This document shows positions 13,488 through 54,661 of a DNA stretch of 64,000 nt, piece after piece. The notes beneath the pieces are model-generated. The model ran no database searches. It saw nothing but the letters and a program-made list of their open reading frames with translations, and was not told the DNA's origin. The position numbers and the translations under genes were made by a program. The DNA comes from a virus: the IMG/VR virus record IMGVR_UViG_3300045988_165521. The stretch is one strand, 5' to 3'. How positions within the stretch are numbered: the first letter of the stretch is position 1; every line of letters begins with the position of its first letter.

Positions 13488-13507
13488 CAAAATTAAAAAT
13501 TAAAATT

Positions 13508-21964: not shown

Positions 21965-22342
21965 GGGGCTGCTAGGTATTTGATCCTAATGTCAAGTAAT
22001 ATCAATCGTGTCGAGTTTGATTCATACTCGTAAAACAGATTCAAACAATAAACGCAAATAACATTTTTTCGCGCATTATCAACAAGGTTGAGACGGCGCT
22101 GTTTGGCGACATTGAAGGAGTAGCTTTAATAGCTGCGTAAATCAATGGGAGGTTCGTCACTCTTAAACTGGCGAGAACAACACTTCCTTTCAAGGTTTGG
22201 CTTCGTTCCTTAAAAATGAGCTGGTGGATGGGTCACCTTCGGGTACCCCTATTGGGTAGTTCCAATTAAAACAAAACTAACACACGTAATAAGTTGATAT
22301 TAGGAGAATTAGGAGACACGCGTTCGATTCGCGTCAGCTCCA
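21965..22342 (+). ncRNA. ssrA: tmRNA (transfer-messenger RNA)
   Basis: 5' GGGGCTG pairs with 3' CAGCTCC, including G3-U70, and is followed by A73. The T arm is ACGCG-TTCGATT-CGCGT. The ends resemble E. coli GGGGCUGAUUCUGGAUUCGAC and ...CCAGCUCCACCA. An internal frame ...GDIEGVALIAA-TAA (stop at 22138-22140) looks like a tag. Length is 378 nt. Confidence 0.85.
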
Positions 22343-22350
22343 CTATTTAA

Positions 22351-22395: not shown

Positions 22396-22668
22396 ATGAG
22401 TAGTAAATTAAAGATATTTCAATATCATAACGTACATCTATACAATCTAAAACAATATAGAATAGCTTTAGAAGTTGGAGTATATAATTCTATGGAAGGT
22501 TTTCTAAGTGTATTAGGAAGTAATCAACGTTTAGCTTGGGAATTTAAAAAATGGTTACCTATACATAAAGAAGATTTTATTCCATATTCTATGAATTATC
22601 GATATGGGCATGTAATAGTATATAGTGATATGTGTATACAAATAGTTTATAGAATATGGGTAAGATAG
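22396..22668 (+). CDS. YRI-tail family small protein (tandem copy 1)
   Basis: The track ORF starts at a GTG inside the terminator; the ATG is at 22396. It ends ...QIVYRIWVR. Its last codons contain the ATG of the next copy. Confidence 0.6.
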   Translation: MSSKLKIFQYHNVHLYNLKQYRIALEVGVYNSMEGFLSVLGSNQRLAWEFKKWLPIHKEDFIPYSMNYRYGHVIVYSDMCIQIVYRIWVR

Positions 22669-22925
22669 TTCAAATTATAGATTCTTTCTATGCTGAACGA
22701 TTGTCATTTAGAATTTGTGAGGTCGTAGGAACTTACAATAATCCTTTTGCACCTCCAAGTAGACTTATAGTTGGAAGTAATAAATTTTTGTCTTGGGAAT
22801 TTGATGAGTGGCTTCCAGAAGTTAAGGATTTTGTTAACCTAGAGAAAAAATCATTAAGATATGGAAGAGTACTTGTTGTAGGGGATGAATATGAGATTAC
22901 AAAATATCGTATATGGATAAAATAG
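22656..22925 (+). CDS. YRI-tail family small protein (tandem copy 2)
   Basis: Starts MGKIVQI and ends ...ITKYRIWIK. It shares L[AS]WEF..WLP with copy 1. Confidence 0.65.
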   Translation: MGKIVQIIDSFYAERLSFRICEVVGTYNNPFAPPSRLIVGSNKFLSWEFDEWLPEVKDFVNLEKKSLRYGRVLVVGDEYEITKYRIWIK

Positions 22926-23182
22926 TACAGATTAAATATGCCCGTGGATTACGGTATGCAAAAAACAAGATATGCTTGATATTAGGTATAGATGAAGGTG
23001 GAACTGTTATTTTGGCTCGAAGTTCTAGTTTAAGTTGGAAGATTCCTAAGGATCTAATATCTCATCTTGTTAAATGTAATTTTACTTCTAAAGAATCTAA
23101 AAAATTAAATCTTATTTGTGGAAGATATATAGAACCTAAGGATATTACTTGTTATGTAAAATACCGTATATGGATAAGTTAA
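22913..23182 (+). CDS. YRI-tail family small protein (tandem copy 3)
   Basis: Starts MDKIVQI and ends ...YVKYRIWIS. Confidence 0.65.
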   Translation: MDKIVQIKYARGLRYAKNKICLILGIDEGGTVILARSSSLSWKIPKDLISHLVKCNFTSKESKKLNLICGRYIEPKDITCYVKYRIWIS

Positions 23183-24676: not shown

Positions 24677-24738
24677 AGCAATCTCTCGGAGTAGAGGCTG
24701 TCATGAAATCGAGACAGGTTGTCACTAAGTAACAATAT

Positions 24739-24810
24739 ACTCTCGTTGTTCAAGGCATAGGACGCAAAACTACGGATTTTGTAATAGAGGTTGGATTCCT
24801 CTCGAGAGTG
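24739..24810 (+). tRNA. tRNA-Arg(ACG)
   Basis: Acceptor ACTCTCG/CGAGAGT. Anticodon arm is CAAAA-CTACGGA-TTTTG. The T loop TTGGATT is unusual. Confidence 0.85.
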
Positions 24811-24833
24811 CAGACGTTTAATTTTTACACACT

Positions 24834-25032: not shown

Positions 25033-25317
25033 ATGGATCTTAAAGAACATATTGTAGGAGAAGTTGAAGGATATCCTGTAATCTACATTGAAGAAAAAGA
25101 TACAATTTTCTGTAAGAACACTGCTGTAAAATATTCTTTATTAAAAAGATTATATGATAGTCCTTTCTCAAGAGAAAAAATTGAGGAAAAATCTCTTACT
25201 ATAACAAAAGAAGAACATTTTGTTACATTTGGTTGTTTAACTACAACTAAAGAATATTGTCAAACTGTAATAAAAAATATAAATAAAATTAAAAATGGGA
25301 AATCCTGTAGGAGTTAA
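25033..25317 (+). CDS. hypothetical protein (94 aa)
   Basis: ORF-track ORF. Confidence 0.55.
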   Translation: MDLKEHIVGEVEGYPVIYIEEKDTIFCKNTAVKYSLLKRLYDSPFSREKIEEKSLTITKEEHFVTFGCLTTTKEYCQTVIKNINKIKNGKSCRS

Positions 25318-26704
25318 AAGCGTAATGCGAAGTACTGTTTCTAAGTATGAGCAGGAGCAAAAAGAGAAATTTATTCAGGTAATGTCTGATCCTCGTATGC
25401 GTTATTCGGACGCTTTAAATTTTGTTGAAAACGAGATTAAGCAGTCGAAGCGTATGGGTACATTCAATCATAAGATCTTGTGTTTTATGAATGATGGAGT
25501 TTATCAGCTGAATCGTGCAATCCAGGAAGTTTTTGGAATTGTATCAGCAGCTAAAAACGATAACCCTTCAGGAGGTGATGATACTGTTAATACTATTGAA
25601 GTTATCCTTGCTGATGGACGTCGTGTTAAAGTTCCGTATGGAGATATTGAACTTGCGGATTTAGGAGAAGGAAGTGTTATTTCTATCTCTTATAATGGTA
25701 ATGATCACCATCTCTATATCAAGGGTAAGTGTCAGTTCAGGTTTACTACTCTGATGGACGACATTATCGATCGGACAAAAGAACTTCTTGCAACTGATTC
25801 TATTTATAAGAGTCAGGCATTAGAGATCTCTGATCTCAACAATCCTCTTGTCATGGATCTGTCAAATATTGACCGTGAAATGATGGTTCTTTCTGAAGAT
25901 ACAGCTCTCGGATTACGTCCTCTTAAATCTCGTATCAAGTATCCTGAGAAGTGTACTGAACGAGGAATTCCTCTGAAGTATGGTGCACTGTTTGAAGGTC
26001 CTTATGGAACTGGCAAAACTCTGCTTGCTTTTAAGCTTATTCAGGAAGCTATTCAGAATAATTGGGTAAGTGTATATCTGAAAGATCCTACATTACTTGC
26101 TGAGACTATTCGTCTTTGTAAAGTAATCGACGGAACTGGGCATGGAGTTGTTATCTTTGTTGAGGATATCGATCAGGTAACTCGTGGTAAACGAGATGCT
26201 GCTATGCAGGATATTCTTAATACTCTTGATGGTGGTGATACTAAGGGTATGAATGTAATTACTCTGTTTACTACTAATCATCTTGAGCTTATTGAGCCGA
26301 CTTTTCTGCGTGGTAAGCGTATTGGCAAAGTTATCTCTTTAGGTGCTTTAGATGAAGCTACTGCTAAAGAGTTCATTGAGCGTTCTTTTGTAGGAGATTA
26401 TACTCTTCAGGGAGATTTCTCTGCAGTATGTAAGCAGATCCGAGATTCGAACATTGCTCCTGCATTCATGGCTGAGATTGTAGAATCTGTAAAGAGTGAT
26501 ATGATCTTTATGGATGATACTAAGGTTGTATTACCTCAGTATATTAAAGTAGCAGTTGAATCTTATCTGCGTCAAGTAGGTCTTGCTCAGAAGAAAGATA
26601 TGACTGAAACTCCTGAAGTTAAATTTGCTGAATCAATTCGCGAAATTACTGGTATTGATCGCGTTGAGAAGAAAGTAGATGAACTTATTGAAATGCAAGA
26701 CTAA
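25295..26704 (+). CDS. AAA+ ATPase
   Basis: Walker A is GPYGTGKT and Walker B is VVIFVEDID. Codon usage is GC-richer. Confidence 0.85.
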   Translation: MGNPVGVKSVMRSTVSKYEQEQKEKFIQVMSDPRMRYSDALNFVENEIKQSKRMGTFNHKILCFMNDGVYQLNRAIQEVFGIVSAAKNDNPSGGDDTVNTIEVILADGRRVKVPYGDIELADLGEGSVISISYNGNDHHLYIKGKCQFRFTTLMDDIIDRTKELLATDSIYKSQALEISDLNNPLVMDLSNIDREMMVLSEDTALGLRPLKSRIKYPEKCTERGIPLKYGALFEGPYGTGKTLLAFKLIQEAIQNNWVSVYLKDPTLLAETIRLCKVIDGTGHGVVIFVEDIDQVTRGKRDAAMQDILNTLDGGDTKGMNVITLFTTNHLELIEPTFLRGKRIGKVISLGALDEATAKEFIERSFVGDYTLQGDFSAVCKQIRDSNIAPAFMAEIVESVKSDMIFMDDTKVVLPQYIKVAVESYLRQVGLAQKKDMTETPEVKFAESIREITGIDRVEKKVDELIEMQD

Positions 26705-26825: not shown

Positions 26826-27404
26826 ATGATAGTACAGTATTTTGACGTAATTCACTGTAAAACTCAGGAACAGGTAACGGCAGTAATTAACAAACTTCAT
26901 TCTGAACAAGGACTTACTTGGATGCACGATGATGAAAATCCTCTTATCGAAAACCCTGCAGATTTTGAAATAGAACAGAAGTTCTTTAAAAATATTAATG
27001 AAGAAGAAAAGGAGGAGTTTTATATTGTAACAGTGAAATTTCCTGAATTAGATAAGTGTATTGTTCACATATCTCGAAAGGAACATAATACAAAAACAAT
27101 GCGAGCTGCTCTTGCAGAAACTGATGAAGAAGAAAGTTCTGCAGAAACTGTTTTCTATGAAGCTGAAGAATTTCTTGGGAGTTTTATAGGAAGCGATCTC
27201 TTTGGAGTATTTTCTATAGACTACGAAGTCTATGATACTGAAGATAATCATATCTGTAGTATTAAGAACAAAAAGGAACTTTCTGAAATTTATAACAAAG
27301 CTATAGAAGAAGGAACTACATTTGTTGTCTACGTGGGTAGTGAAAAAGTAGAAATCAATTCTGAGCATAATATTGATTATTATGATGAAAAAATTGCATT
27401 CTAA
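26826..27404 (+). CDS. hypothetical acidic protein (192 aa)
   Basis: ORF-track ORF. Confidence 0.6.
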   Translation: MIVQYFDVIHCKTQEQVTAVINKLHSEQGLTWMHDDENPLIENPADFEIEQKFFKNINEEEKEEFYIVTVKFPELDKCIVHISRKEHNTKTMRAALAETDEEESSAETVFYEAEEFLGSFIGSDLFGVFSIDYEVYDTEDNHICSIKNKKELSEIYNKAIEEGTTFVVYVGSEKVEINSEHNIDYYDEKIAF

Positions 27405-27678
27405 TCGAGAATTCTGAGATCAATTAAAGGAAAATGATAAAGTATTAGTAAAATCTAAAGACTGGTATGATAAAAACGCTGTTGAGGAAAATGTTCCTAT
27501 AGGTCCTAAATTTGTTTCAGCAATGACTGAAGACTGTAATAAATTCTTAACAGTTTCTGGTGTTATAGGTTGGTATGGCAGAGAAGACTTGCACTTTGAA
27601 ATTAAACATAACTGGTATAGATACTCAAGTCTTTTTGTTCATAAGCTAATTATTCGTAACTATAGAATTTTATTGTAA
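27382..27678 (+). CDS. YRI-tail family member (98 aa), needs TGA=Trp at 27415-27417
   Basis: Translation runs MMKKLHSNREF[W]DQLKENDKVLVKSKDWYDK...HKLIIRNYRILL. No ATG is available downstream of the TGA. It is a paralog of 28311..28578. Confidence 0.45.
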
Positions 27679-27766
27679 TAATTTTTTAAAAATAAGTGTA
27701 TAAATATTTGGATATATTAACTTTTGTCCTTATATTTGTACACTTTTCTGATGAAATCAGACTGAT

Positions 27767-27839
27767 TGCCCTGTCGTTTAATAGGCTAAGACGTTGCCCT
27801 TTGGAGGCAAAGTTCCAGGATCGTACCCTGGTGGGGCAA
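27767..27839 (+). tRNA. tRNA-Gln(TTG)
   Basis: Acceptor TGCCCTG/TGGGGCA with U1-A72. Anticodon arm is TTGCC-CTTTGGA-GGCAA, T arm is CCAGG-ATCGTAC-CCTGG. Confidence 0.85.
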
Positions 27840-27854
27840 CTAAATTTTAAATAT

Positions 27855-28298
27855 ATGAAAGAGTGGTGGTATAAAATTAGGAACTTCTTTAGAAATCTCT
27901 ATATTTATAGAAAAATATTATCAGCAGATTATCAATTTGATTATGGGTATCTTCTTGATTTAGAAAAGTTTAAGTTACAGTTAATGCTTAAATCTTTTAA
28001 AGATGAATCTCATACAGATCACACTAACGATATTCGTTGGATATCTATATGTATTAAACTTATTGATATTATTCAAGAAGAAGATTCTGCTTTAGAAGTT
28101 GTTGAAATGGAAATGAGTAAACCTCAATTCAAACTTGTTAAATATGTAAATATTAATAATGCATTTCGGTTCGGAATTGAATATCTTGATCGATATGATG
28201 GACTTCAAGTATATCGAAGAGAATTATTAAGGCAACAAAAGGCTCTTTACTTATATAATAAAATTAGATATAACTATATGTTAGAATGGTGGGATTAA
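27855..28298 (+). CDS. hypothetical protein (147 aa)
   Basis: Track ORF 27696..28298 starts at a GTG upstream of tRNA-Gln and runs through it. The first ATG after the tRNA is at 27855 (MKEWWYKIRNFF...). Confidence 0.6.
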   Translation: MKEWWYKIRNFFRNLYIYRKILSADYQFDYGYLLDLEKFKLQLMLKSFKDESHTDHTNDIRWISICIKLIDIIQEEDSALEVVEMEMSKPQFKLVKYVNINNAFRFGIEYLDRYDGLQVYRRELLRQQKALYLYNKIRYNYMLEWWD

Positions 28299-28310
28299 TA
28301 AATAAGATAT

Positions 28311-28578
28311 ATGATAATACGCTCAGAATATTTTCATAAACATGGACTAAAAATTAGAGATAAAATAGTAATTGCAAGTAAGGAGGTCTTAAAAGATAAT
28401 AAAACTGTACACCCCCTTTGTAGTTAACGAAATGCTAAAATATGCGGATCAAATTCATACTTTAAAGTATGAACCCAAGGATGTAGTTTATCTTGCAAAT
28501 ACTCAAAACTGGGTATGGGGTCCAACCTTTTTCAGAAATTTAATTATTCGCAATTATAGACTTCTATTAGAAAATTAA
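28311..28578 (+). pseudogene. YRI-tail family paralog disrupted by a frameshift at a C5 run
   Basis: The frame from ATG 28311 (MIIRSEYFHKHGLKIRDKIVIASKEVLKDNKTVH) stops soon after C5 (28412-28416). The +1 frame continues PFVVNEMLKYADQ...FRNLIIRNYRLLLEN and aligns to 27382..27678. Confidence 0.45.
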
Positions 28579-28599
28579 TTATTCAAGATTTTTTAATGT

Positions 28600-28776
28600 T
28601 TGATTAAAAAGATTTATTTTCTTAGTGAGAAGAAATATATACAAATATGTAAGGAAGGGAATAGTTGTTTCTCTGAGAAGCAATTGCCTTGTTGTTTTCA
28701 ATATAGTTCAGATTGTTCTTTTTATCCTTGTCCAAGTAGAGTATATATACGTATTAAATATAGAATAACTTTATAA
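28600..28776 (+). CDS. Cys-rich YRI-tail family member without an ATG start (possible TTG start)
   Basis: Open frame ...KKYIQICKEGNSCFSEKQLPCCFQYSSDCSFYPCPSRVYIRIKYRITL ends 5 nt before tRNA-Asp. Confidence 0.3.
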   Translation: MIKKIYFLSEKKYIQICKEGNSCFSEKQLPCCFQYSSDCSFYPCPSRVYIRIKYRITL

Positions 28777-28781
28777 ATAAT

Positions 28782-28853
28782 GGTCTTATAGGGTAGTGGT
28801 TATCCTTCCAGCTTGTCACGCTGGAGACACGAGTTCGATTCTCGTTAAGACCG
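28782..28853 (+). tRNA. tRNA-Asp(GTC)
   Basis: Acceptor GGTCTTA/TAAGACC. Anticodon arm is CCAGC-TTGTCAC-GCTGG, T arm is ACGAG-TTCGATT-CTCGT. Confidence 0.9.
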
Positions 28854-28956
28854 CGAAGTTCTTAATTATTAGCTGCAAATATACCCTATTTGGGAGAGCT
28901 TGTTATTCGTGTGTAAAGACGTTTGCTGTAAGCACGATTAAGAACTTTATTTTAAT

Positions 28957-29028
28957 GGCCCCTTAGTTTATTTGGAAAAATGTCAGTTTTGTAACCTGAG
29001 GAGAACGGATCGTAACCGTTAGGGGCCT
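28957..29028 (+). tRNA. tRNA-Thr(TGT)
   Basis: Acceptor GGCCCCT/AGGGGCC. The anticodon loop is TTTGTAA, T arm is AACGG-ATCGTAA-CCGTT. Confidence 0.85.
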
Positions 29029-29036
29029 CTATTATT

Positions 29037-29045
29037 GGGGGGGGG
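29037..29045. repeat. G9 homopolymer tract
   Basis: Nine consecutive G lie 9 nt after tRNA-Thr. Confidence 0.9.
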
Positions 29046-29090
29046 TATGTAAATACTCTCTCACAATATTAACTTTTAAAATTATTAAAC

Positions 29091-29324
29091 ATGTTTAATT
29101 CAAAAGGTACAACATCTACAGATCTGTCGAAGAAAGTAGACAATGTTTTAAATGCTTTTAAAACAGCAATTGATGGACTTAATGCAGTTAATACTCAGGC
29201 AAAAGAAGGTATTGCTGCTAAAGAAGAGGAAATTAAAGCTGCTCAAACTGAGAAAGAAGCACTTGAGACAATCTGCAAAAAGAACGAAAGTGTTCTTGCA
29301 AAATTAACTGCTATCCTTGAATAA
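29091..29324 (+). CDS. hypothetical coiled-coil protein (77 aa)
   Basis: ORF-track ORF. Confidence 0.5.
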   Translation: MFNSKGTTSTDLSKKVDNVLNAFKTAIDGLNAVNTQAKEGIAAKEEEIKAAQTEKEALETICKKNESVLAKLTAILE

Positions 29325-29426
29325 AGGATAGTTTTCGAGTATGGGGTGTGGAAGTAGCACGAGAAATTTGGGATTTCTAGGGGATTGAGCGTTACAATCA
29401 TACTCGACTAATAATTAATTATATTT

Positions 29427-29687
29427 ATGGAATCTTTTATTGATAACCCTAATCTATTCTGTATTCAATTTATTGATGGTTATATAATTCAAACAACTCC
29501 TGCAGATAGTAAGTCTTGTGCAGATCCTGATCAATTTGGTAATTATTGCATATGTCGATCTCGAGGAGATAACTCAGCAAAAATAGGGTGTTGTTTTACT
29601 TGTGAGAATCATTCAGAGTATAGTGATTATACAATACAAGCTCAAGTTAAATACAGAATCTATGTAAATAGTAAAATGGAGAGTTAG
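29427..29687 (+). CDS. Cys-rich YRI-tail family protein
   Basis: Contains ...CADPDQFGNYCICRSRGDNSAKIGCCFTCENH...QVKYRIYVNSKMES. Its 3' end overlaps tRNA-Val by 10 nt. Confidence 0.6.
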   Translation: MESFIDNPNLFCIQFIDGYIIQTTPADSKSCADPDQFGNYCICRSRGDNSAKIGCCFTCENHSEYSDYTIQAQVKYRIYVNSKMES

Positions 29688-29751
29688 CCAAGTGGTTCAC
29701 GGCACCTGACTTACATTCAGGAGATCGGGAGTTCGACTCTCTCACTCTCTA
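29678..29751 (+). tRNA. tRNA-Val(TAC)
   Basis: Acceptor GGAGAGT/ACTCTCT (G1-U72). Anticodon arm is CCTGA-CTTACAT-TCAGG, T arm is GGGAG-TTCGACT-CTCTC. Confidence 0.85.
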
Positions 29752-29772
29752 CTAATAATTAATGTATATAAG

Positions 29773-30867
29773 ATGATAACATTAGATCATGTAAATAAAA
29801 ATTCTGGAAACTTTCTTCCAACACTTTGGTTAGTAGATAAATATAAACAATATCCAAATTGTGTATCAGTAATCTGTAACCTTGAACAAAAGAAGTTAAA
29901 TGAAAATAAGTTCTTAAAGAAGTTTAAAGAAAAGTTTACTAACTTTTGTATATGGGAAGATAATGTAATTGGAGTCAAACCTGAAGTTTCTGAAGAGGTA
30001 CTTGAAGAATTGGATCGTCCATTTTATGTAAGTCAACCTACTGCCTTACAATTTAGTGGAATTTGTGAAGAGTATAGATGCGCTTTGAATTATTATTCTT
30101 CTAGAATGTTAATTTATTTTTGTGATAAAGCTCTTATAGGTAACTTTATAGAGGATATTAAATCTTTATTTGAAGAATGTTCAGAAAAAGTAGTTTCTAC
30201 AACAAAAGTTAACTTAATTACTTTTGATGGTCAGGATTATGGTTTAACTGAATGTAAGATTAGAGATGTTAATGTTGACCTTGATAAACACTATAATGAT
30301 GATTTCAAACCTGTTTATAAAGATATTTCTGACTTCTTAAATAGTCCAAAATCTGGTTTAGTTATTCTTCATGGAACTCAAGGTACTGGTAAAACCTATA
30401 TGATTCGTCACTTAGTTAATAATTTTGATAAGCAATTTATTATTATTAATAACTCTATGATGAATAGCTTATCTGATCCTGTATTCTTAAACTTTATTCT
30501 TGATCATAAGAATTCAGTAATTATTCTTGAGGATTGTGAACAGCTTCTTAAAGATCGTTCTGAAAATGTATTTACAAATGGTATTAGTAATATTCTTAAT
30601 ATGACTGATGGTATTTATTCAGATATTTTAAATATTAAGTTTATTGCTACATTTAATAGTCCTGATACAAGTATTGATAAAGCATTGATGCGAAAGGGTC
30701 GACTTGCTGCAAAATACAAGTTTGATGAACTCTCTTTAGAGAAGACTAATAGAATACTTAAGGAATTAGGTAAACCTGAGGCAAGTAAAGGTATGACTCT
30801 TGCAGATATCTATAATCTTGATGTTCAGTCTTATGAACATAAGACTAGACGTAAAATTGGATTCTAA
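29773..30867 (+). CDS. AAA+ ATPase
   Basis: Walker A is HGTQGTGKT and Walker B is VIILEDCEQ. Confidence 0.85.
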   Translation: MITLDHVNKNSGNFLPTLWLVDKYKQYPNCVSVICNLEQKKLNENKFLKKFKEKFTNFCIWEDNVIGVKPEVSEEVLEELDRPFYVSQPTALQFSGICEEYRCALNYYSSRMLIYFCDKALIGNFIEDIKSLFEECSEKVVSTTKVNLITFDGQDYGLTECKIRDVNVDLDKHYNDDFKPVYKDISDFLNSPKSGLVILHGTQGTGKTYMIRHLVNNFDKQFIIINNSMMNSLSDPVFLNFILDHKNSVIILEDCEQLLKDRSENVFTNGISNILNMTDGIYSDILNIKFIATFNSPDTSIDKALMRKGRLAAKYKFDELSLEKTNRILKELGKPEASKGMTLADIYNLDVQSYEHKTRRKIGF

Positions 30868-31067
30868 TGATGTTTTGGATATTTATTTATTGGTTACTTT
30901 GTGCGTTTATTGTTATTGGAACAGATGATGGAGAACCATGGACTGTTGGAGATAAATGGTACATAGTATTTGCAGGATTTTATGTTCCTATAATAATTGG
31001 CCTATTTATAGGTAGTTACATTAAAGAAACTGGATTTTTTGATAAAAAACATCCATGGGAACATTAA
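30867..31067 (+). CDS. small membrane protein (66 aa)
   Basis: ORF-track ORF with a TAATG overlap with the upstream gene. Confidence 0.55.
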   Translation: MMFWIFIYWLLCAFIVIGTDDGEPWTVGDKWYIVFAGFYVPIIIGLFIGSYIKETGFFDKKHPWEH

Positions 31068-31074
31068 TCTATAT

Positions 31075-31149
31075 GTTGTCCGTAGCTTAGTTGATTAAAG
31101 CGCAAGTTTGTGGCACTTGAGATCGGGAGTTTGAATCTCCTCGGACACC
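31075..31149 (+). tRNA. tRNA-His(GTG) with encoded G-1
   Basis: G-1 (31075) lies opposite C73. Anticodon arm is CAAGT-TTGTGGC-ACTTG, T arm is GGGAG-TTTGAAT-CTCCT. Confidence 0.85.
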
Positions 31150-31328
31150 TAAAAGTATTCTTTAAACATACGAATCTGGACAAATGGTTAGACCTTATCT
31201 TATAAACCCCAAACTATAAGAATTAAGAAGTATTTCTCTCGAAATTAGGTAGATCCAGCTTCCTAGAGAGATAGAAGAATACTTACGATATAGTAGATTA
31301 GTTAAAATAATAATAACTTCTACTAAAT

Positions 31329-31402
31329 ACCTACATGGCGCAATTGGTTAGCGTACTTCTCTGATAAGGAAGCGGTTGAAGGTTCAAGTCCTTCTGTAGG
31401 TA
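31329..31402 (+). tRNA. tRNA-Ile(GAT), second copy
   Basis: Acceptor ACCTACA/TGTAGGT. Anticodon arm is CTTCT-CTGATAA-GGAAG, T arm is GAAGG-TTCAAGT-CCTTC. Confidence 0.9.
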
Positions 31403-31417
31403 CTAAAAGAGAAAATT

Positions 31418-31678
31418 ATGAAAGAATATAAGATTTGGAAATTTATACCAGGAAAATATTTACAAACAGTAACTGTTAGTCTTGAAGAGGAATATCCTTG
31501 TAAACAAAAAAGATGTGGATATTCTTGTTTAGGAGATAAAACAGAACATGTATGTTTTGTTAAAGCAAATCTCTCTTTTGAAGAACGTGAAAATTTAAAA
31601 TGTACAGCTTCAGGGAACAAAGAACATAAAAACTTTATACATATTAGACTTTTACATAGAATTTTTATAGATGAATAA
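31418..31678 (+). CDS. Cys-rich YRI-tail family protein (variant tail HRIFIDE)
   Basis: ORF-track ORF lying between tRNA-Ile and tRNA-Lys. Confidence 0.55.
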   Translation: MKEYKIWKFIPGKYLQTVTVSLEEEYPCKQKRCGYSCLGDKTEHVCFVKANLSFEERENLKCTASGNKEHKNFIHIRLLHRIFIDE

Positions 31679-31706
31679 TTATAAAGAGGAGTGTAATCCT
31701 TAGGCA

Positions 31707-31779
31707 GAGCTTATAATATAATCGGTTAGTATCCTACACTTTTAATGTAGTTGTCAGGGTTCGAGTCCCTGTAGGCTCA
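31707..31779 (+). tRNA. tRNA-Lys(TTT)
   Basis: Acceptor GAGCTTA/TAGGCTC. Anticodon arm is CTACA-CTTTTAA-TGTAG, T arm is CAGGG-TTCGAGT-CCCTG. Confidence 0.85.
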
Positions 31780-31804
31780 CACAATTTTTAAGTCAGAATT
31801 ACAA

Positions 31805-31999
31805 ATGATAAAACGTTTTGAAAATAAGTATATACAATCTATAAGAAGAGGTTATTTATGTCATATTACCCCTAATAAAAAATGTTATGGATTTGAATAT
31901 CATCATAATTCAAATGGATGTGAGATTTTTAATGAGAAATTTGGAGGATGTAGTAACAGACGTTATAATATGATTAAATATAGGATCTATGCAGATTAA
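31805..31999 (+). CDS. Cys-rich YRI-tail family protein
   Basis: Ends ...MIKYRIYAD. The ATG of the next member is embedded in its tail codons. Confidence 0.55.
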   Translation: MIKRFENKYIQSIRRGYLCHITPNKKCYGFEYHHNSNGCEIFNEKFGGCSNRRYNMIKYRIYAD

Positions 32000-32195
32000 A
32001 TATTTTCCTGAAATAAAGTGTTGTATACAAGCAGTTAGATCTCTAAAACAAAACCATTGTAGTAATAATCAATGCTATAAGTCAACCAATTATTGTATTT
32101 TGTTTTTACCTGCTTTCAATAAAAGTTGTCTTAAATATTATTTTTGGAGAGTTTCTTATCGTGTATTCTTAGAAGCTTCTTATGATAGAATATAA
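31989..32195 (+). CDS. YRI-tail family protein (tail SYRVFLE)
   Basis: ORF-track ORF that ends 8 nt before tRNA-Asn. Confidence 0.45.
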   Translation: MQIKYFPEIKCCIQAVRSLKQNHCSNNQCYKSTNYCILFLPAFNKSCLKYYFWRVSYRVFLEASYDRI

Positions 32196-32203
32196 AATAT
32201 AAT

Positions 32204-32276
32204 TGGAATGTGGCTGAGTGGTTGAAGCACCAAACTGTTAATTTGGGTTACGTGGGTTCGAGCCCCACCGTTCCAG
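32204..32276 (+). tRNA. tRNA-Asn(GTT)
   Basis: Acceptor TGGAATG/CGTTCCA. Anticodon arm is CCAAA-CTGTTAA-TTTGG, T arm is GTGGG-TTCGAGC-CCCAC. Confidence 0.9.
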
Positions 32277-32290
32277 CTAATATTAAACTT

Positions 32291-32551
32291 ATGCAACAGA
32301 TAAATACTTATGCAGAACTTAGAAAACTTAAACTAAATAAGTTATTCAAACATCCAACTTATAATATATATCAAGTTATTAAAAATAGAAATGCAGGATT
32401 TTGTCAGGGTGGATCTAGTAATATTAACCAGTGTGGTTTTATGTATCGTACTAGTTTTAATAAGCCATTTTGTTATAGAGCATGTGTACAAGGAAAACAA
32501 TATTTCTGGTATATAAAAATCAAATATAGAATTATACTAGATGATAAATAA
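32291..32551 (+). CDS. Cys-rich YRI-tail family protein
   Basis: Track ORF 32210 starts at a GTG inside tRNA-Asn; the ATG is at 32291. It ends ...WYIKIKYRIILDDK. Confidence 0.6.
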   Translation: MQQINTYAELRKLKLNKLFKHPTYNIYQVIKNRNAGFCQGGSSNINQCGFMYRTSFNKPFCYRACVQGKQYFWYIKIKYRIILDDK

Positions 32552-32588
32552 TTTGCTACAAATTTATTAACTTTTTGTGTTAAAATAC

Positions 32589-32679
32589 GGAGGATTGAGC
32601 CAAGTTGGACTAATGGCAGCACTCTTGAAAAGTGTAGGTCGCTTAAAACGGCGTGGGGGTTCGAGTCCCTCATCCTCCG
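32589..32679 (+). tRNA. tRNA-Ser(TGA), class II
   Basis: Acceptor GGAGGAT/ATCCTCC. Anticodon arm is GCACT-CTTGAAA-AGTGT, with a long variable arm. Confidence 0.9.
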
Positions 32680-32689
32680 CAATAAATAT

Positions 32690-32935
32690 ATGAAAACAGT
32701 AGAAGATCTTACAGAACTTAACAAAATCAAGTTAAATCAACTATTTAAATATATAAATAACTATATATTCCAGGCTATTCGAAGTAAAAAACATTTCTAT
32801 TGTTTTGATAATAAGAAGAATATTGGATGTAATTTATATAAGATTGGTCGTAGATGTAGCTTAGTTTGTATAAAATCTAAAGAAGAAAATTTCTGGTATA
32901 TAAGAATCATATATAGAATTAGACTAGATGAGTAG
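32690..32935 (+). CDS. Cys-rich YRI-tail family protein
   Basis: Ends ...WYIRIIYRIRLDE and shares KLNQLFK with 32291..32551. Confidence 0.6.
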   Translation: MKTVEDLTELNKIKLNQLFKYINNYIFQAIRSKKHFYCFDNKKNIGCNLYKIGRRCSLVCIKSKEENFWYIRIIYRIRLDE

Positions 32936-33161
32936 AGATATTGTATTAAAATATTGGAAAATAATTAGATATAAAACTTTAATTATTCAATGTGTACCTG
33001 AAGGAACACCTATAAAAAGATTTTGTTATGAATCTTCTGTTGGAAAGCCATGTGCTTTTACAGGAAAGGCTTGTAGTGATTTTAAATGTATAGATAGAGT
33101 AGATGGTCTTCGAGTTAGGTATATTAAAATAGATCATAGAGTTTATGTCAGCAAAACATAG
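32928..33161 (+). CDS. Cys-rich YRI-tail family protein (tail DHRVYV)
   Basis: Its start is embedded in the tail codons of the previous member. It shares RVRYIKID with the next member. Confidence 0.55.
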   Translation: MSRDIVLKYWKIIRYKTLIIQCVPEGTPIKRFCYESSVGKPCAFTGKACSDFKCIDRVDGLRVRYIKIDHRVYVSKT

Positions 33162-33405
33162 AGTTTCTCAAATAATTCTATTATTTGGTTATAGATATCG
33201 ATTACATCAGGTTATTCTAGGTATACAAGGAGAATCATCGTGTTATATGAGTGTTATTAAAGGTAAATCTTGTATATTTCGTGAGTATAATAGAATAAAT
33301 GGTAAGACATGTTGTGTCGATATTGCATGTACTCCTTTAGAACGAAAAGATGATATTAGAGTACGTTATATTAAATTAGACTATCGAATTTATTTGTTTA
33401 AATAA
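33145..33405 (+). CDS. Cys-rich YRI-tail family protein
   Basis: Ends ...RVRYIKLDYRIYLFK. Its stop is immediately followed by tRNA-Trp. Confidence 0.55.
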   Translation: MSAKHRVSQIILLFGYRYRLHQVILGIQGESSCYMSVIKGKSCIFREYNRINGKTCCVDIACTPLERKDDIRVRYIKLDYRIYLFK

Positions 33406-33477
33406 GCACTCTTGATGTAACTGGTAACATGACAGTCTCCAAAACTGTTCTTTGGGGTTCGAATCCTTAAGAGTGTG
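33406..33477 (+). tRNA. tRNA-Trp(CCA)
   Basis: Acceptor GCACTCT/AGAGTGC. Anticodon arm is ACAGT-CTCCAAA-ACTGT, T arm is TGGGG-TTCGAAT-CCTTA. Confidence 0.85.
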
Positions 33478-33491
33478 CTTATATATAATTA

Positions 33492-33563
33492 GGGCTGTTA
33501 GTATAGTGGCTATTACATCTGGTTTGCAACCAGAAAACAGGGTTTCGATTACCCTACGGTCCA
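33492..33563 (+). tRNA. tRNA-Ala(TGC)
   Basis: Acceptor GGGCTGT/ACGGTCC with the G3-U70 identity pair. Anticodon arm is TCTGG-TTTGCAA-CCAGA. Confidence 0.9.
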
Positions 33564-33705
33564 CAATCTTCTGTAGATTAGGATTCTATACAGAAAGAGT
33601 ACTGTAATCTGTTAAGAGCTTATAAATCAGACGTTAAAGAAAAAAGTTTTCGGGGCTGAAGAGCCCTGCTATGAATCTAATCCTAGTAGAAATACTAGGA
33701 TTTTT

Positions 33706-33778
33706 GGAACTGCGGTGTGCTAGGTGCGCTCGCTGGACTGAAAATCCAGAGGTAAATGTTCGACTCATTTCAGTTCCG
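33706..33778 (+). tRNA. tRNA-Phe(GAA)
   Basis: Acceptor GGAACTG/CAGTTCC. Anticodon arm is CTGGA-CTGAAAA-TCCAG, T arm is AAATG-TTCGACT-CATTT. D-stem pairing is imperfect. Confidence 0.8.
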
Positions 33779-33867
33779 CACTATCGTCTTCCTTATTAAG
33801 TTTGGTAACACGTGCACTGCCTGTAAATCTTAATAATAGATATGCTTAGTACTTGTTTTTATTAATG

Positions 33868-33939
33868 GATGTATTAGCTCAGTGGTAGAGCTCTGGCAAG
33901 GAGTGCCAGAAGTCATAGGTTCGAATCCTATATGCATCC
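33868..33939 (+). tRNA. tRNA-like gene with non-canonical anticodon loop AAGGAGT (no U33)
   Basis: The acceptor (GATGTAT/ATGCATC), D arm (GCTC-AGTGGTA-GAGC) and T arm (ATAGG-TTCGAAT-CCTAT) are regular. Anticodon stem CTGGC/GCCAG encloses AAGGAGT, which can also fold as a 7-bp stem with loop AGGAG. Confidence 0.5.
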
Positions 33940-34235
33940 CTTAAATCAAAAAATTATGATTATACCTCCAAATTTTTTAGTTAAAACTATTCCACTATAT
34001 AGTGAAGGAGATGTATCTACTCCACATGTAGTAATAAATTATCTTACAAGAAGTCTATTTTTATTCTTTTAAAATTTCCTCCGAATTGGAAATTGATAAA
34101 AGTTAAAGAAATAAAAGATAGAATTTTTATTAAAAATCTTGATTATAAGATGACTATGGGTCTTATGGAAGCAAAACGAATTGTAGATGAATTAACTATA
34201 GAATATGATATGAATAATATCTATAGAATACGATT

Positions 34236-34307
34236 GGTAGAATAGCCAAGTTGATAAGGCAGTGGTCTGCAACACCACGATCGCAGGTTTGAGTCCTGCT
34301 TCTACCT
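34236..34307 (+). tRNA. tRNA-Cys(GCA)
   Basis: Acceptor GGTAGAA/TTCTACC. Anticodon arm is GTGGT-CTGCAAC-ACCAC, T arm is GCAGG-TTTGAGT-CCTGC. Confidence 0.9.
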
Positions 34308-34310
34308 CTA

Positions 34311-34383
34311 AGCGAGTTGGAGAAGATGGTTACCTCGAGAGTTTCATAAGCTCTAGACCTCGGTTCAAATCCGAGACTCGCTA
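34311..34383 (+). tRNA. tRNA-Met(CAT), elongator-like
   Basis: Acceptor AGCGAGT/ACTCGCT. Anticodon arm is AGAGT-TTCATAA-GCTCT, T arm is CTCGG-TTCAAAT-CCGAG. Confidence 0.85.
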
Positions 34384-34400
34384 CACAAAATTTTAAAGTT

Positions 34401-42836: not shown

Positions 42837-43103
42837 ATGAGTAAACTAATAATTAATAAACATCAAATTTGTTATATACCAGAATACAATTTATATTTAC
42901 AGAGAGTAGGAGTAGATAATACAAGCGTTCGTCATACTTGTGAACGTATATGTTCGATTTATCAGATCTGTAGGTATGGTTATTGTCGTAATAAGACTAT
43001 AGACCCACATTATGGTAATCATGGTTGCGCAGATAACGGAGAGCAAGACGCTTATAAAATTATTTGTTATAGAATATACTTAGAACCTATAGAATGGAAA
43101 TAG
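42837..43103 (+). CDS. Cys-rich YRI-tail family protein
   Basis: Ends ...AYKIICYRIYLEPIEWK and starts 16 nt after tRNA-Ser. Confidence 0.6.
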   Translation: MSKLIINKHQICYIPEYNLYLQRVGVDNTSVRHTCERICSIYQICRYGYCRNKTIDPHYGNHGCADNGEQDAYKIICYRIYLEPIEWK

Positions 43104-46097: not shown

Positions 46098-46370
46098 ATG
46101 ATATTATATAAAGTTCAGAAATACTTTCCTACAGATTTTTCACAAAATTTTATAGAATGTAATATTTGTTCTATAGACAATTTTGAAAGAGAAAGTATAA
46201 AACATGCTATTCGCGATGGTCTTAAACCACATATTTGTTCAGGCATGTGTAGAGAATGTAATAATTTTATAGGTTTGATTGGAGTAGATCTTGAAAAACG
46301 AACAGGAACTGTAATATGTTCTCATAAAAATTATTACAGACTTGAATTTGATGAAAACGAAGGTGCATAA
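46098..46370 (+). CDS. Cys-rich small protein with a YRI-like tail (YYRLEFDENEGA)
   Basis: ORF-track ORF that starts 17 nt after the TCT tRNA. Confidence 0.55.
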   Translation: MILYKVQKYFPTDFSQNFIECNICSIDNFERESIKHAIRDGLKPHICSGMCRECNNFIGLIGVDLEKRTGTVICSHKNYYRLEFDENEGA

Positions 46371-46380
46371 ATTATTATAT

Positions 46381-52368: not shown

Positions 52369-52424
52369 TTTGTATATTTTCAGATTTTTTACTACCTTTG
52401 CTGTATAACTAAAGGTAGTAAAAT

Positions 52425-53448: not shown

Positions 53449-53613
53449 ATGCAACATAGTCCTTATAAGATAAAGTATGAGCAATATTTTGTAATGTATT
53501 CTGATAGATTAAAAAGAAGGTATTATCAAGGAAAGCCTTGGGCAGAAGCAGGCTCTTATACAGTTTGAAATCTTCATTATATTAATAAAACTTATCGAAT
53601 TGTTATACAATAG
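53449..53613 (+). CDS. small YRI-tail protein (54 aa) with one in-frame TGA
   Basis: Translation is MQHSPYKIKYEQYFVMYSDRLKRRYYQGKPWAEAGSYTV[W]NLHYINKTYRIVIQ, followed by a terminator. Confidence 0.4.
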
Positions 53614-54352: not shown

Positions 54353-54661
54353 ATGAAAGCTGCACTTCCAAGAGATGTTTCTTTAAATATATTATTTGTA
54401 ATAGATATCTGTAAATTAACTTTAGAAGAAAAAGGTAAACTCCAGGAAGATTTATTTGGAGTAGGAGCTTATTGGAGTAATAGTCAGAGAGTTATTATTG
54501 AAGAGGGCACGGATAATTCAGTTGGATATTATTTTATATATCCTAATCGAAGAATAACTTATTTACAAAAAGATCATAATATTTTTGATTTTACCTTTGA
54601 TCGTATTGTAGATAAAGATACTGCGCTAAATCTTTTAAGATATAGAATTTTTCTAAAGTAA
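54353..54661 (+). CDS. YRI-tail family protein (tail LLRYRIFLK)
   Basis: ORF-track ORF. Confidence 0.55.
   Translation: MKAALPRDVSLNILFVIDICKLTLEEKGKLQEDLFGVGAYWSNSQRVIIEEGTDNSVGYYFIYPNRRITYLQKDHNIFDFTFDRIVDKDTALNLLRYRIFLK

What the first reader, a model, noticed from the sequence alone, without database searches (positions are those of the whole stretch)
27382..34245. Family of at least 19 small proteins with a YRI[WYIF]-type C-terminal tail, interleaved almost one-to-one with tRNA genes
The members end in ...KYRIWIK, ...KYRIYVN, ...KYRIILDDK, ...IYRIRLDE, ...DYRIYLFK, ...DHRVYVSKT, ...HRIFIDE, ...NYRILL, ...CYRIYLE, ...YYRLEFDE, ...TYRIVIQ and ...RYRIFLK. They start at 22396, 22656, 22913, 27382, 28311, 28600, 29427, 31418, 31805, 31989, 32291, 32690, 32928, 33145, about 34150, 42837, 46098, 53449 and 54353. 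Most are 55-110 aa with a variable Cys-rich middle. The Arg of the motif is encoded by CGT, CGA, AGA or AGG in different copies. That indicates selection on the protein, not on a DNA repeat. The placement is striking. Between 31329 and 33477 the order is tRNA-ORF-tRNA-ORF-ORF-tRNA-ORF-tRNA-ORF-ORF-ORF-tRNA. Other copies directly abut tRNA-Gln, Asp, Val, Cys, Ser(GCT), the TCT tRNA, the intron tRNA/HNH unit and the tmRNA. I do not recognise the family. Possible roles are tRNA-binding or protective factors (for example against anticodon nucleases), small zinc-binding inhibitors, or passengers of a tRNA-cassette duplication mechanism.
Basis: seen in the sequence. Interest (0 to 1): 0.85.

Follow-up and report, generated by a model that had tools for sequence, protein, structure and literature searches.

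The report
Fast-evolving mini-proteins filling a phage tRNA array
A gut phage packs the gaps between its tRNA genes with 19 small, fast-changing proteins that all end in the same short "Tyr-Arg-Ile" strand; they form at least three unrelated groups with no known relatives, and nothing found here shows that they act on tRNA.

Summary
Nineteen + strand ORFs end in [YH]R[ILV]x[ILVFA], against about 1 expected and 1 on the - strand. The order tRNA-ORF-tRNA-ORF-ORF-tRNA-ORF-tRNA-ORF-ORF-ORF-tRNA at 31329-33478 is exact.

"One family" is not supported.
- Group C is a true 10-member family. It has four conserved Cys, an invariant Gln and a C-terminal hairpin.
- Group A (3 genes after the tmRNA) and group B (2 genes) share only the tail with C in profile comparison.
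- Four further ORFs are singletons.

Two members need read-through of an in-frame TGA. The phage appears to read TGA as Trp. One member is frameshifted in this window.

None of the 17 members scanned has a significant Pfam or PHROGs match. Structure searches found nothing for groups A and C. Profile and word-index searches of the large protein collections found relatives only in this human-gut phage lineage (genomes about 175 kb).

The genes are real and coding, but they evolve fast: pooled pN/pS is 0.46 against 0.09 for neighbouring genes. They show whole-ORF presence/absence, recombinants between paralogues and exchange of 3' ends.

Every gene in the array abuts a tRNA, not only these. A sister clade has a smaller array and no such tails.

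Best reading: early accessory, host-interaction mini-proteins in a hyperplastic region shared with the tRNAs. The function of the tail is unknown.

The parts
22396..22668 (+). Group A member A1 (90 aa), tail ...IVYRIWVR. It starts 53 nt after the tmRNA.
   Evidence: ORF. Paralogue of A2 by blastp (E 2e-13). Thirteen gapless alleles with an invariant tail.
22656..22925 (+). Group A member A2 (89 aa), tail ...TKYRIWIK. Its ATG lies inside the tail codons of A1.
   Evidence: The profile search found 188 relatives, all from the same phage lineage. The AF2 model is beta-rich, pLDDT 74.
22913..23182 (+). Group A member A3 (89 aa), tail ...VKYRIWIS. Its ATG lies inside the tail codons of A2.
   Evidence: Against A2, 10 of 12 shared degenerate residues in the last third use the same codon, compared with 3 of 11 in the first third.
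27382..27678 (+). Group B member B1 (98 aa if the TGA at 27415-27417 is read as Trp), tail ...IIRNYRILL. It ends 89 nt before tRNA-Gln.
   Evidence: Translation. The in-frame TGA is conserved in 10 related genomes while flanking codons vary. The sister clade has a positional homologue without the YRI tail (L025 8284-8547).
28311..28578 (+). Group B member B2. It is frameshifted in this window (28311-28427 plus 28432-28578). Tail ...IIRNYRLLLEN.
   Evidence: Two ORFs. L006, L007 and L010 carry one intact 87-aa ORF. blastp of the C-terminal piece (28432-28578) against the B1 fragment 27523-27678 gives E 7e-5.
28600..28776 (+). Group C member (58 aa from a TTG start), tail ...IKYRITL. It ends 6 nt before tRNA-Asp.
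   Evidence: HMM E 2e-13. Alignment A1.
29427..29687 (+). Group C member (86 aa), tail ...VKYRIYVNSKMES. It overlaps tRNA-Val by 10 bases (ARAGORN places tRNA-Val at 29678).
   Evidence: Its most distant homologue is P0127 in L011.
31418..31678 (+). Group C member (86 aa), tail ...LLHRIFIDE, between tRNA-Ile and tRNA-Lys.
31805..31999 (+). Group C member (64 aa), tail ...IKYRIYAD. It starts 25 nt after tRNA-Lys.
   Evidence: It is the most constrained member (3 synonymous and 0 non-synonymous differences).
31989..32195 (+). Group C member (68 aa), tail ...VSYRVFLEASYDRI. It ends 9 nt before tRNA-Asn.
32291..32551 (+). Group C member (86 aa), tail ...IKYRIILDDK, between tRNA-Asn and tRNA-Ser(tga). 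It is present or absent as a whole-ORF cassette.
   Evidence: The indel is precisely ORF-sized and travels with an alternative tRNA-Asn allele. Its 49-nt 3' end is 90% identical to that of 32690.
32690..32935 (+). Group C member (81 aa), tail ...IIYRIRLDE. It starts 10 nt after tRNA-Ser(tga).
   Evidence: It is absent from 5 of 12 related genomes. Metagenomic proteins include chimeras with 33145.
32928..33161 (+). Group C member (77 aa), tail ...IDHRVYVSKT.
   Evidence: AF2 model: pLDDT 65, all beta, with the tail as the last strand. Foldseek found no match in PDB or BFVD.
33145..33405 (+). Group C member (86 aa), tail ...LDYRIYLFK. It ends 1 nt before tRNA-Trp.
   Evidence: pN/pS is 0.78. The C-terminal hairpin is nearly invariant across 22 sequences (21 orthologues plus the window copy) while the loops between the Cys vary.
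34093..34245 (+). Singleton (50 aa), tail ...NIYRIRLVE. It overlaps tRNA-Cys by 10 bases (ARAGORN places tRNA-Cys at 34236).
   Evidence: It is conserved in all related loci with an invariant tail (15 alleles). It has no Cys cluster.
42837..43103 (+). Group C member (88 aa), tail ...ICYRIYLEPIEWK. It starts 15 nt after tRNA-Ser(gct).
   Evidence: HMM E 8e-15..
46098..46370 (+). Singleton (90 aa) with CxxC motifs, tail ...NYYRLEFDENEGA. It starts 16 nt after tRNA-Arg(tct).
   Evidence: The group C HMM does not retrieve it. Only a weak PHROG endonuclease VII hit, E 0.027.
53449..53613 (+). Singleton (54 aa if the TGA at 53566-53568 is read as Trp), tail ...KTYRIVIQ. It follows an HNH ORF.
54353..54661 (+). 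Singleton (102 aa), tail ...LLRYRIFLK. No tRNA is nearby.
   Evidence: No family match.
27767..34384 (+). Core tRNA array: 15 tRNA genes interleaved with the small ORFs, an AAA+ ATPase gene and several other ORFs.
   Evidence: ARAGORN and Rfam. The tRNA order is conserved in related genomes while the ORFs between the tRNAs vary.
21965..22343 (+). Phage tmRNA, immediately upstream of the group A trio.
   Evidence: ARAGORN. Rfam RF00023 at 100 bits.

Best explanation
These are real genes of a human-gut phage lineage with genomes of about 175 kb. The phage appears to read TGA as Trp, and its genes lack Shine-Dalgarno sequences, which suggests a Bacteroidota-type host.

**What they encode.** They encode beta-rich mini-proteins of 50-100 aa and belong to at least three sequence-unrelated groups.
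- In the main group (C, 10 genes), a conserved N-terminal hairpin and a nearly invariant C-terminal hairpin (...YIKIxYRIYL) form a scaffold. Between them sits a fast-changing four-Cys segment that is probably the surface that binds a target.
- Groups A and B and four singletons carry the same terminal strand on different bodies.

**Where they sit.** They lie in the phage's early, hyperplastic accessory region, which also houses the tRNA array.

**How they are probably expressed (inferred).** Genes and tRNAs are co-transcribed. RNase P and RNase Z processing of the tRNAs would then release short mRNAs with A-rich leaders of 10-25 nt.

**What they probably do (inferred).** They bind or inhibit host proteins, for host takeover or anti-defence. 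They diversify by duplication, recombination between paralogues, exchange of 3' ends and gain or loss of whole ORFs.

**Why they sit beside tRNAs.** The interleaving reflects shared location and tight gene packing, not a shown action on tRNA.
For: **Shown: the genes are coding and strand-specific.**
- 19 tail-bearing ORFs on the + strand against 1 on the - strand.
- Pooled pN/pS is 0.46, below 1. For the tail block it is 0.36.
- The ORFs are intact in 10 or more related genomes.

**Shown: group C is a true family.**
- C38, C47, C60 and R76 are invariant. Q28 and C56 are conserved in at least 90% of the ten paralogues.
- All four Cys and the Gln are invariant in the 48-sequence alignment.

**Shown: they evolve fast on a conserved scaffold.**
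- pN/pS is 0.46, against 0.09 for neighbouring genes.
- Variation sits between the Cys and in the N-terminal part. The C-terminal hairpin is nearly invariant.

**Shown: cassette behaviour and recombination.**
- One indel is exactly ORF-sized.
- The presence/absence matrix shows members coming and going.
- Metagenomic proteins include chimeras between paralogues.
- Paralogue 3' ends share identical codons.

**Shown: restricted to this lineage, no known relatives.**
- The group C profile search of 1.84 billion representative proteins gave 28 hits. Twenty-seven are from this phage lineage (P0127 is from the related L011 contig). One, P0124, is a chance match to a repetitive Cys-rich protein.
- Word-index profile searches of 5.8 billion proteins for groups C and A found only unnamed proteins. 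The sequences inspected are close relatives of the window's own genes.
- No significant match in Pfam, PHROGs or NCBIfam. Foldseek gave nothing for the models of groups A and C.

**Supporting the early-gene and co-transcription inference.**
- 17 of the 19 ORFs contain no in-frame TGA. TGA-containing ORFs are concentrated in the replication-type genes at 55-64 kb.
- Only three Bacteroidetes-type promoter matches lie on the + strand, one of them at 27707 at the head of the array.
- 2 of 52 genes have a Shine-Dalgarno core upstream.
- All genes in the array, family or not, start 14-62 nt after a tRNA.
Against: - There is no expression data and no identified target.
- The AF2 models are of modest confidence (pLDDT 65 and 74), so the scaffold-and-loop picture is tentative.
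- Group C lacks CxxC knuckles, so metal binding is unproven. Disulfides would be unusual in the cytoplasm.
- A pN/pS below 1 everywhere except A1 and A2 fits relaxed constraint as well as diversifying selection.
- This account does not explain why unrelated bodies share one C-terminal motif.
- 13 of the 19 lie within 30 nt of a tRNA or overlap one, so a functional tie to tRNA cannot be excluded.
Confidence: 0.5

Rival explanations
1. The YRI tail is a shared docking or sorting signal. On this view, unrelated small proteins acquired the same C-terminal strand because it binds one common partner. Candidates are a host or phage machine such as one of the two AAA+ ATPases in the array, a protease, the ribosome, or the capsid. 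The variable bodies would then be adaptors or cargo.
For: - At least six independent groups (A, B, C and singletons) carry the motif, where about 0.3-1 would be expected by chance.
- The tail is the most conserved part of every group.
- B1's positional homologue in the sister clade has the same body with a different tail.
- Two AAA+ ATPase genes lie inside the array.
Against: - In the group C model the tail is an integral last strand of a hairpin, not a free peptide.
- The sister clade keeps both AAA+ genes without any YRI tails.
- No known C-terminal signal resembles the motif (from my own knowledge).
- Exchange of 3' ends between paralogues can spread a tail without a common partner.
Confidence: 0.15
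2. The proteins act on tRNA. They would bind, chaperone or shield the phage's tRNAs, for example against host anticodon nucleases, or they would regulate processing of the adjacent tRNA.
For: - 13 of the 19 lie within 30 nt of a tRNA or overlap one.
- The more distant contig L011 also has tail-bearing ORFs interleaved with tRNAs.
- The same region carries a tmRNA, an RNA ligase and an HD-domain protein.
- The conserved hairpin is rich in Arg, Lys and Tyr.
- C32291 and C32690 co-vary with a tRNA-Asn allele.
Against: - Non-family genes abut tRNAs equally closely.
- Six members have no tRNA within 50 nt (A2, A3, B1, C32928, 53449, 54353).
- Members and their neighbouring tRNAs are lost independently.
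- The sister clade has the tmRNA and 5-10 tRNAs in the same stretch but no YRI tails.
- No RNA-binding fold or family was detected, and the Hfq comparison was negative.
- The loops evolve fast, which fits a varying protein target better than conserved tRNA.
Confidence: 0.12
3. The ORFs are spacer DNA without protein function. The tail would reflect a DNA- or RNA-level element, such as a promoter, a processing site or a recombination site, read in frame.
For: - TATAGAAT recurs in 10 of the 19 tails, counting the 18 printed and 53449's TAT CGA ATT.
- 3' ends of some paralogues are identical even at synonymous sites.
- pN/pS is high for several members.
Against: - The Arg codons are AGA, CGT, CGA and AGG, in the same proportions as elsewhere in these genes.
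- Tyr, His, Ile, Val and Leu codons also vary.
- pN is lower than pS overall, and lowest in the tail.
- Four Cys and one Gln are conserved across paralogues that share only 20-40% identity.
- No ORF has been lost to stop codons in 10 or more genomes that differ by up to 10-28% in these genes.
- Sigma-70-type promoter and terminator scans show no enrichment.
- No flanking repeat or attC-like element was found.
Confidence: 0.05

Closest known systems
Small ORFan early genes in the hyperplastic regions of T4-type and other large phages, including the tRNA regions of T4 and T5 (from my own knowledge of the field; T4 tRNA region as described in PMC2330249)
   Same: - Arrays of short genes of unknown function on one strand.
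- Tightly packed, with overlapping start and stop codons.
- Lineage-specific and paralogous.
- Whole-gene presence/absence between close relatives.
- Located with tRNA genes and free-standing homing endonucleases.
   Different: - A single C-terminal motif is shared by sequence-unrelated groups.
- Ten members share a four-Cys core.
- No PeSL-like flanking repeats were found.
- The host is probably Bacteroidota-type, and the phage reads TGA as Trp.
Small zinc-ribbon or zinc-knuckle phage proteins
   Same: - Similar size: four conserved Cys in a beta-rich protein of 60-90 aa.
- The sister clade has tandem small proteins with CxxC motifs in the equivalent region.
   Different: - Group C has Cys spacings of C-x8-10-C and C-x3-5-C and no CxxC or CxxH knuckle.
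- No zinc-ribbon family or fold was matched.
SH3-like small beta-barrels (CAP-Gly, ribosomal proteins bL19 and eL27)
   Same: The best Foldseek matches for the group A model are these folds, with TM-scores of about 0.4-0.54.
   Different: - The E-values are all above 0.5.
- Only one of the five AF2 models was confident.
- The group C model matched nothing.
TGA-recoded gut phages (zeta crAss-like phage Lera, PMC12386605; Jade, Sapphire and Agate clades, bioRxiv 10.1101/2021.08.26.457843)
   Same: - Human-gut origin.
- Genomes of about 150-200 kb.
- About 26 tRNAs in a block among the forward-strand nucleic-acid-metabolism genes, near the start of most of those genomes.
- TGA read as Trp in a subset of genes.
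   Different: - No nucleotide match in the phage collection.
- The AAA+ ATPase is closest to those of jumbo phages such as PA5oct.
- In the passages I read, neither paper mentions this protein family.

Membership tests
Any curated protein family (Pfam-A, PHROGs v4, NCBIfam 20) | A significant HMM match at or near the family's cut-off | tested here: not met
   Seventeen members were scanned. The best E-values were 0.02-0.5, all far below the cut-offs.
A single 'YRI-tail' protein family comprising all 19 ORFs | Homology detectable beyond the tail in profile comparisons | tested here: not met
   The group C HMM retrieves only its own 10 members; A3 scores E 0.026. hhalign: A against C aligns 18 tail columns at 18% probability, B against C aligns 6 columns, and A against B aligns nothing in register.
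Group C (four-Cys) family, as defined here | Four Cys, one Gln and the tail Arg alignable over the full length | tested here: met
   Ten window paralogues score E 1e-11 to 4e-23. M, Q, four C and R are invariant in the 48-sequence alignment.
Zinc-ribbon / zinc-knuckle proteins | Two CxxC (or CxxH) knuckles on beta-hairpins | tested here: not met
   Group C Cys spacings are C-x8-10-C, then C-x3-5-C. Only the singleton 46098 has CxxC pairs. Metal content cannot be tested with these tools.
Homing endonucleases of phage tRNA regions (GIY-YIG SegB-like, HNH) | A catalytic GIY-YIG or HNH motif, and a size above about 150 aa | tested here: not met
   No Pfam match, and the proteins are 48-102 aa. True HNH ORFs lie nearby at 36721, 45406 and 52877 and are unrelated.
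Sm/Hfq-like RNA-binding barrels | Sm1 and Sm2 motifs; profile similarity to Hfq | tested here: not met
SH3-like small beta-barrel (group A only) | A five-stranded barrel that superposes on known members | tested here: inconclusive
   Foldseek top hits are CAP-Gly and bL19, with TM 0.43-0.54 and E above 0.5. The model has pLDDT 74, and only one of five models was confident.
Integron-type gene cassettes | An attC inverted-repeat site after each ORF, and an integrase | tested here: not met
   No recurrent inverted or direct repeat flanks the ORFs. The one indel examined is bounded by the start and stop codons, without repeats. No integrase gene was seen among the ORFs annotated.
tRNA-binding or anticodon-nuclease-inhibitor proteins | Direct binding to tRNA, or inhibition of a tRNA nuclease | not testable with these tools
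   Only positional data are available.

The most novel reading that the evidence does not exclude
The C-terminal strand ...[KN]-Y-R-I-hydrophobic-hydrophobic may be a lineage-specific module that couples many unrelated, fast-evolving small proteins to one common partner. The partner could be the phage tRNAs or the tRNA-processing and translation apparatus next to which the genes sit, or a phage AAA+ machine. The array would then be a diversified set of adaptors or protectors. That would be a new kind of phage counter-defence or takeover toolkit, physically organised around a tRNA array.
Probability: 0.15. Interest if true: 0.8.

Novelty: new variant of a known kind. Interest (0 to 1): 0.45.

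Why it matters
- Large gut phages carry long tRNA arrays whose surroundings are almost entirely unannotated.
- In this lineage, many of the gaps between the tRNAs hold real genes. They are fast-evolving and exchanged like cassettes, and they share one terminal motif across unrelated bodies.
- This is the evolutionary signature seen in host-interaction and anti-defence genes.
- If the tail proves to be a common docking strand, or the proteins prove to act on tRNA or translation, it would link phage tRNA arrays to a dedicated protein toolkit. It would also provide a compact scaffold with naturally diversified loops.
- If not, this remains a well-delimited new ORFan family in an uncultured, TGA-recoded gut phage.

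Tried and rejected
1. **Known families.** Pfam, PHROGs, NCBIfam and a PDB sequence search gave only chance-level hits. The flavivirus E hits, at E about 0.08, fall in a Cys-rich stretch and I take them as chance.
2. **Fold recognition.**
   - The group C model matched nothing in PDB or BFVD.
   - The group A model resembles SH3-like barrels only weakly.
3. **Hfq/Sm.** The tail recalled the YKHAI motif, but hhalign was negative.
4. **DNA-level element.**
   - Arg codon usage matches the background of these genes.
   - There is no promoter or terminator enrichment.
   - There are no flanking repeats.
5. **Integron-like cassettes.** No attC-like repeats and no integrase.
6. **tRNA+ORF duplication.** The closest paralogues follow tRNA-Asn and tRNA-Ser, which are different tRNA classes, and their leaders are unrelated.
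7. **Wider relatives.**
   - IMG/VR and metagenome scans anchored on the embedded AAA+ gene found only this clade and a sister clade without the tails.
   - The L011 clade is a single contig.
   - There is no near match in the phage collection.
8. **Prohead-protease or clamp-binding motif in the tail.** I considered this from memory. The patterns do not fit, and I did not test it further.
9. **Ile-rich C-termini in the sister clade**. I noted these as a possible parallel. Ile is abundant in this AT-rich genome, so I did not rely on it.

Full report
**Setting**

The window is AT-rich (27-42% GC) and almost all its genes lie on the + strand.
- It carries a tmRNA and 26 tRNA calls from ARAGORN. 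Rfam adds a 27th tRNA at 36627.
- It has no near match among 50,697 phage records.
- Relatives are human-gut metagenomic contigs. The complete-looking ones are about 165-183 kb, and two are longer, at 203 and 222 kb.
- Only 2 of 52 genes have a Shine-Dalgarno core upstream, and the leaders are 83% A+T. This fits a Bacteroidota-type host, as do distant protein matches to a Bacteroides phage.
- Translating with TGA as Trp joins broken ORFs into a 407-aa helicase-like protein, a 374-aa DnaB/RecA-like protein, an RNase H-like protein and three HNH endonucleases. These names rest on motifs I read in the translations, not on family searches. The phage therefore appears to use code 4 in part of its genome, as described for other gut phages (PMC12386605; bioRxiv 10.1101/2021.08.26.457843).

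Yes.
- The pattern [YH]R[ILV]x[ILVFA] within the last 14 residues occurs in 18 of 371 + strand stop-to-stop ORFs, and in 1 of 512 on the - strand.
- With TGA read through, the + strand count is 19 of 449. Only 8 further matches lie anywhere else in the + strand frames, so about 1 is expected by chance.
- The stated order between 31329 and 33478 is exact.

Three members need qualification.
- 27382 and 53449 each contain an in-frame TGA. The one at 27415 is conserved in all 10 related genomes while its neighbouring codons vary. It is therefore most likely translated.
- 28311 and 28432 are one 87-aa gene in relatives and are frameshifted here.

**Protein or DNA?**

Protein.
- The motif's Arg is AGA 13 times, CGT 3, CGA 2 and AGG 1, close to the 55% AGA of other Arg codons in these genes. 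The Tyr/His and Ile/Val/Leu codons also vary.
- Over 16 members with orthologues, pooled pN/pS is 0.46, and for 12 neighbouring genes it is 0.09.
- The 11-codon tail block has pN 0.013 and pS 0.036. The rest of the genes have pN 0.038 and pS 0.059.
- The genes are therefore under purifying selection, strongest on the tail, but they evolve about five times faster at the protein level than their neighbours.
- A1 and A2 have more non-synonymous change than neutral expectation (A2: 12 non-synonymous, 0 synonymous). The numbers are too small to be significant.

**One family?**

No.
- blastp and an HMM define group C with ten members: 28600, 29427, 31418, 31805, 31989, 32291, 32690, 32928, 33145 and 42837. 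They share four Cys, one Gln and the hairpin ...YIKIxYRIYL.
- Group A (22396, 22656, 22913) and group B (27382, 28311/28432) are separate families.
- hhalign aligns only the tail between groups.
- 34093, 46098, 53449 and 54353 are singletons.
- B1 has a positional and sequence homologue in a sister clade that ends ...ELVIQFPIIE instead.
- At least six independent groups carry a motif expected about once by chance. The sharing is therefore not accidental. The cause could be very deep homology, convergence on a common function, or spread by recombination.

**Relatives and structure**
- A profile search of 1.84 billion representative proteins with group C found 28 proteins. Twenty-seven are from this phage lineage, and one (P0124) is a chance match to a repetitive Cys-rich protein.
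- Word-index searches of the 5.8-billion-protein collection found 137 relatives of group C and 188 of group A. None has an informative name. The sequences inspected are close relatives of the window's own genes, on contigs of up to about 177 kb.
- AF2 on 32928 with 48 sequences gave pLDDT 65 and pTM 0.49. The model is all-beta, with an N-terminal hairpin, two middle strands and a C-terminal hairpin whose last strand is the YRI tail.
- Foldseek found nothing for that model in PDB or BFVD.
- Group A gave pLDDT 74 in one model of five. It resembles SH3-like barrels such as CAP-Gly and bL19, but not significantly.
- Within orthologue sets, variation lies between the Cys and in the N-terminal part. 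The C-terminal hairpin is almost invariant.

**Dynamics**
- Among 12 related IMG/VR genomes, 32291 and 32690 are missing together with a switch of tRNA-Asn allele.
- 33145, tRNA-Trp and tRNA-Ala are all absent from L016. L017 lacks the two tRNAs but keeps 33145.
- 29427 and tRNA-Val are absent together from L020. A radical-SAM gene with tRNA-Arg is present in only 3 of the 12.
- The 32291 indel runs from the start codon to the last codons of the ORF.
- Many metagenomic proteins are chimeras between paralogues, or run from a paralogue into a tRNA gene. These are either natural deletions or assembly chimeras.
- The last 49 nt of 32291 and 32690 are 90% identical. All 12 shared degenerate residues in the last third use identical codons, rare ones included. 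A2 and A3 show 10 of 12 there, against 3 of 11 in the first third. Paralogue 3' ends are therefore exchanged, or they are constrained because they overlap the next gene's start.

**The tRNA link**
- Thirteen of the 19 lie within 30 nt of a tRNA or overlap one.
- Non-family genes do the same: 24834, 27855, 29773, 34401, 41324 and 44299 start 14-44 nt after a tRNA, and 29091 starts 62 nt after one.
- The tRNA order is conserved while the ORFs between the tRNAs turn over, both within the clade and in the more distant contig L011. L011 still has four small ORFs ending in RIYI (three KYRIY[IL], one TNRIYI) among its tRNAs.
- The sister clade (AAA+ protein 45% identical) keeps the tmRNA, 5-10 tRNAs and a tRNA(tca). 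It lacks YRI tails and instead has a different tandem family of small CxxC proteins.
- The closest paralogues follow tRNAs of different classes, so tRNA+ORF units were not duplicated together.
- Only three Bacteroidetes-type promoter matches lie on the + strand, one of them at 27707 at the head of the array. This fits long transcripts that tRNA processing cuts into short-leader mRNAs, but that remains an inference.

**Conclusion**

The finding is real, and it uncovers new protein families restricted to one phage lineage. The single-family and tRNA-function readings are not supported. The most likely account is that these are early accessory mini-proteins with a conserved beta scaffold and diversifying loops, sitting in a hyperplastic region that they share with the tRNA array. 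The unexplained point is why unrelated bodies carry the same terminal strand. That is where a new mechanism, such as a common docking partner or a tie to tRNA or translation, could still be hiding.

Noticed in passing
window 55262-63600, and also 36721-37449, 45406-46017, 52877-53446: Reading TGA as Trp joins broken ORFs. The results include a 407-aa helicase-like protein (7 in-frame TGA), a 374-aa DnaB/RecA-like protein (4), an RNase H-like protein and three HNH endonucleases; these names come from motifs I read in the translations, not from family searches. The phage seems to use code 4 in part of its genome. No tRNA(tca) was found in the window, but a sister-clade locus has one (L025 20577-20648).
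   Followed up: partly
window 28311-28578: Group B member B2 is split by a frameshift in this window. It is one intact 87-aa ORF in L006, L007 and L010. This is either a pseudogene or a sequencing or assembly error.
   Followed up: partly
P0001, P0004, P0006, P0008, P0063, P0118, P0123, P0086, P0045, P0075, P0126: Many metagenomic proteins are chimeras between two paralogues, or run from a paralogue into the reading frame of a tRNA gene. This implies frequent deletions with breakpoints inside the small genes, or assembly chimeras.
   Followed up: partly
window 52420-53446: A tRNA-like 5' half (GCGAGCTTAGTGTAATGGTAGCAC...) and a matching 3' half lie about 400 nt apart. They are followed by an HNH ORF with two in-frame TGA, and a Bacteroidetes-type promoter match starts at 52369. 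This looks like an intron-containing tRNA that neither ARAGORN nor Rfam called.
   Followed up: no
window 13418-13488 and 36627-36698: ARAGORN reports a tRNA with an unassignable anticodon at 13418. Rfam confirms it as a tRNA at 48.8 bits. Rfam also finds a tRNA at 36627 that ARAGORN missed; its anticodon loop reads UCC (Gly).
   Followed up: partly
L025 4107-4936 and 12242-12517 (sister clade): The sister clade has a different tandem family of four to five small CxxC proteins in the equivalent region. Many of its small ORFs end in Ile-rich strands (...ILIDII, ...INIIIE, ...IPITII, ...QFPIIE). This may be a parallel to the YRI tail, or simply AT-rich composition.
   Followed up: partly
window 23762-24811: The radical-SAM gene and the adjacent tRNA-Arg(acg) are present together in only 3 of 12 closely related genomes. 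Cassette-like turnover in this region is therefore not limited to the small ORFs.
   Followed up: no
window 22913-23292: In group A, the start codon and first codons of each downstream gene (ATGGATAAAATAG = MDKIV) are the same nucleotides as the upstream tail (...I W I K stop). After A3 the same overlap leads into a short hydrophobic ORF (MDKLTSYD...). Dual coding may add constraint on the tail in this group.
   Followed up: partly
window 19473-20165, 46342-47238, 25295-26704, 29773-30867: An RNA ligase, an HD-domain protein and two AAA+ ATPases are embedded in or next to the tRNA/tmRNA region. The 364-aa ATPase is closest to proteins of jumbo phages such as PA5oct.
   Followed up: no
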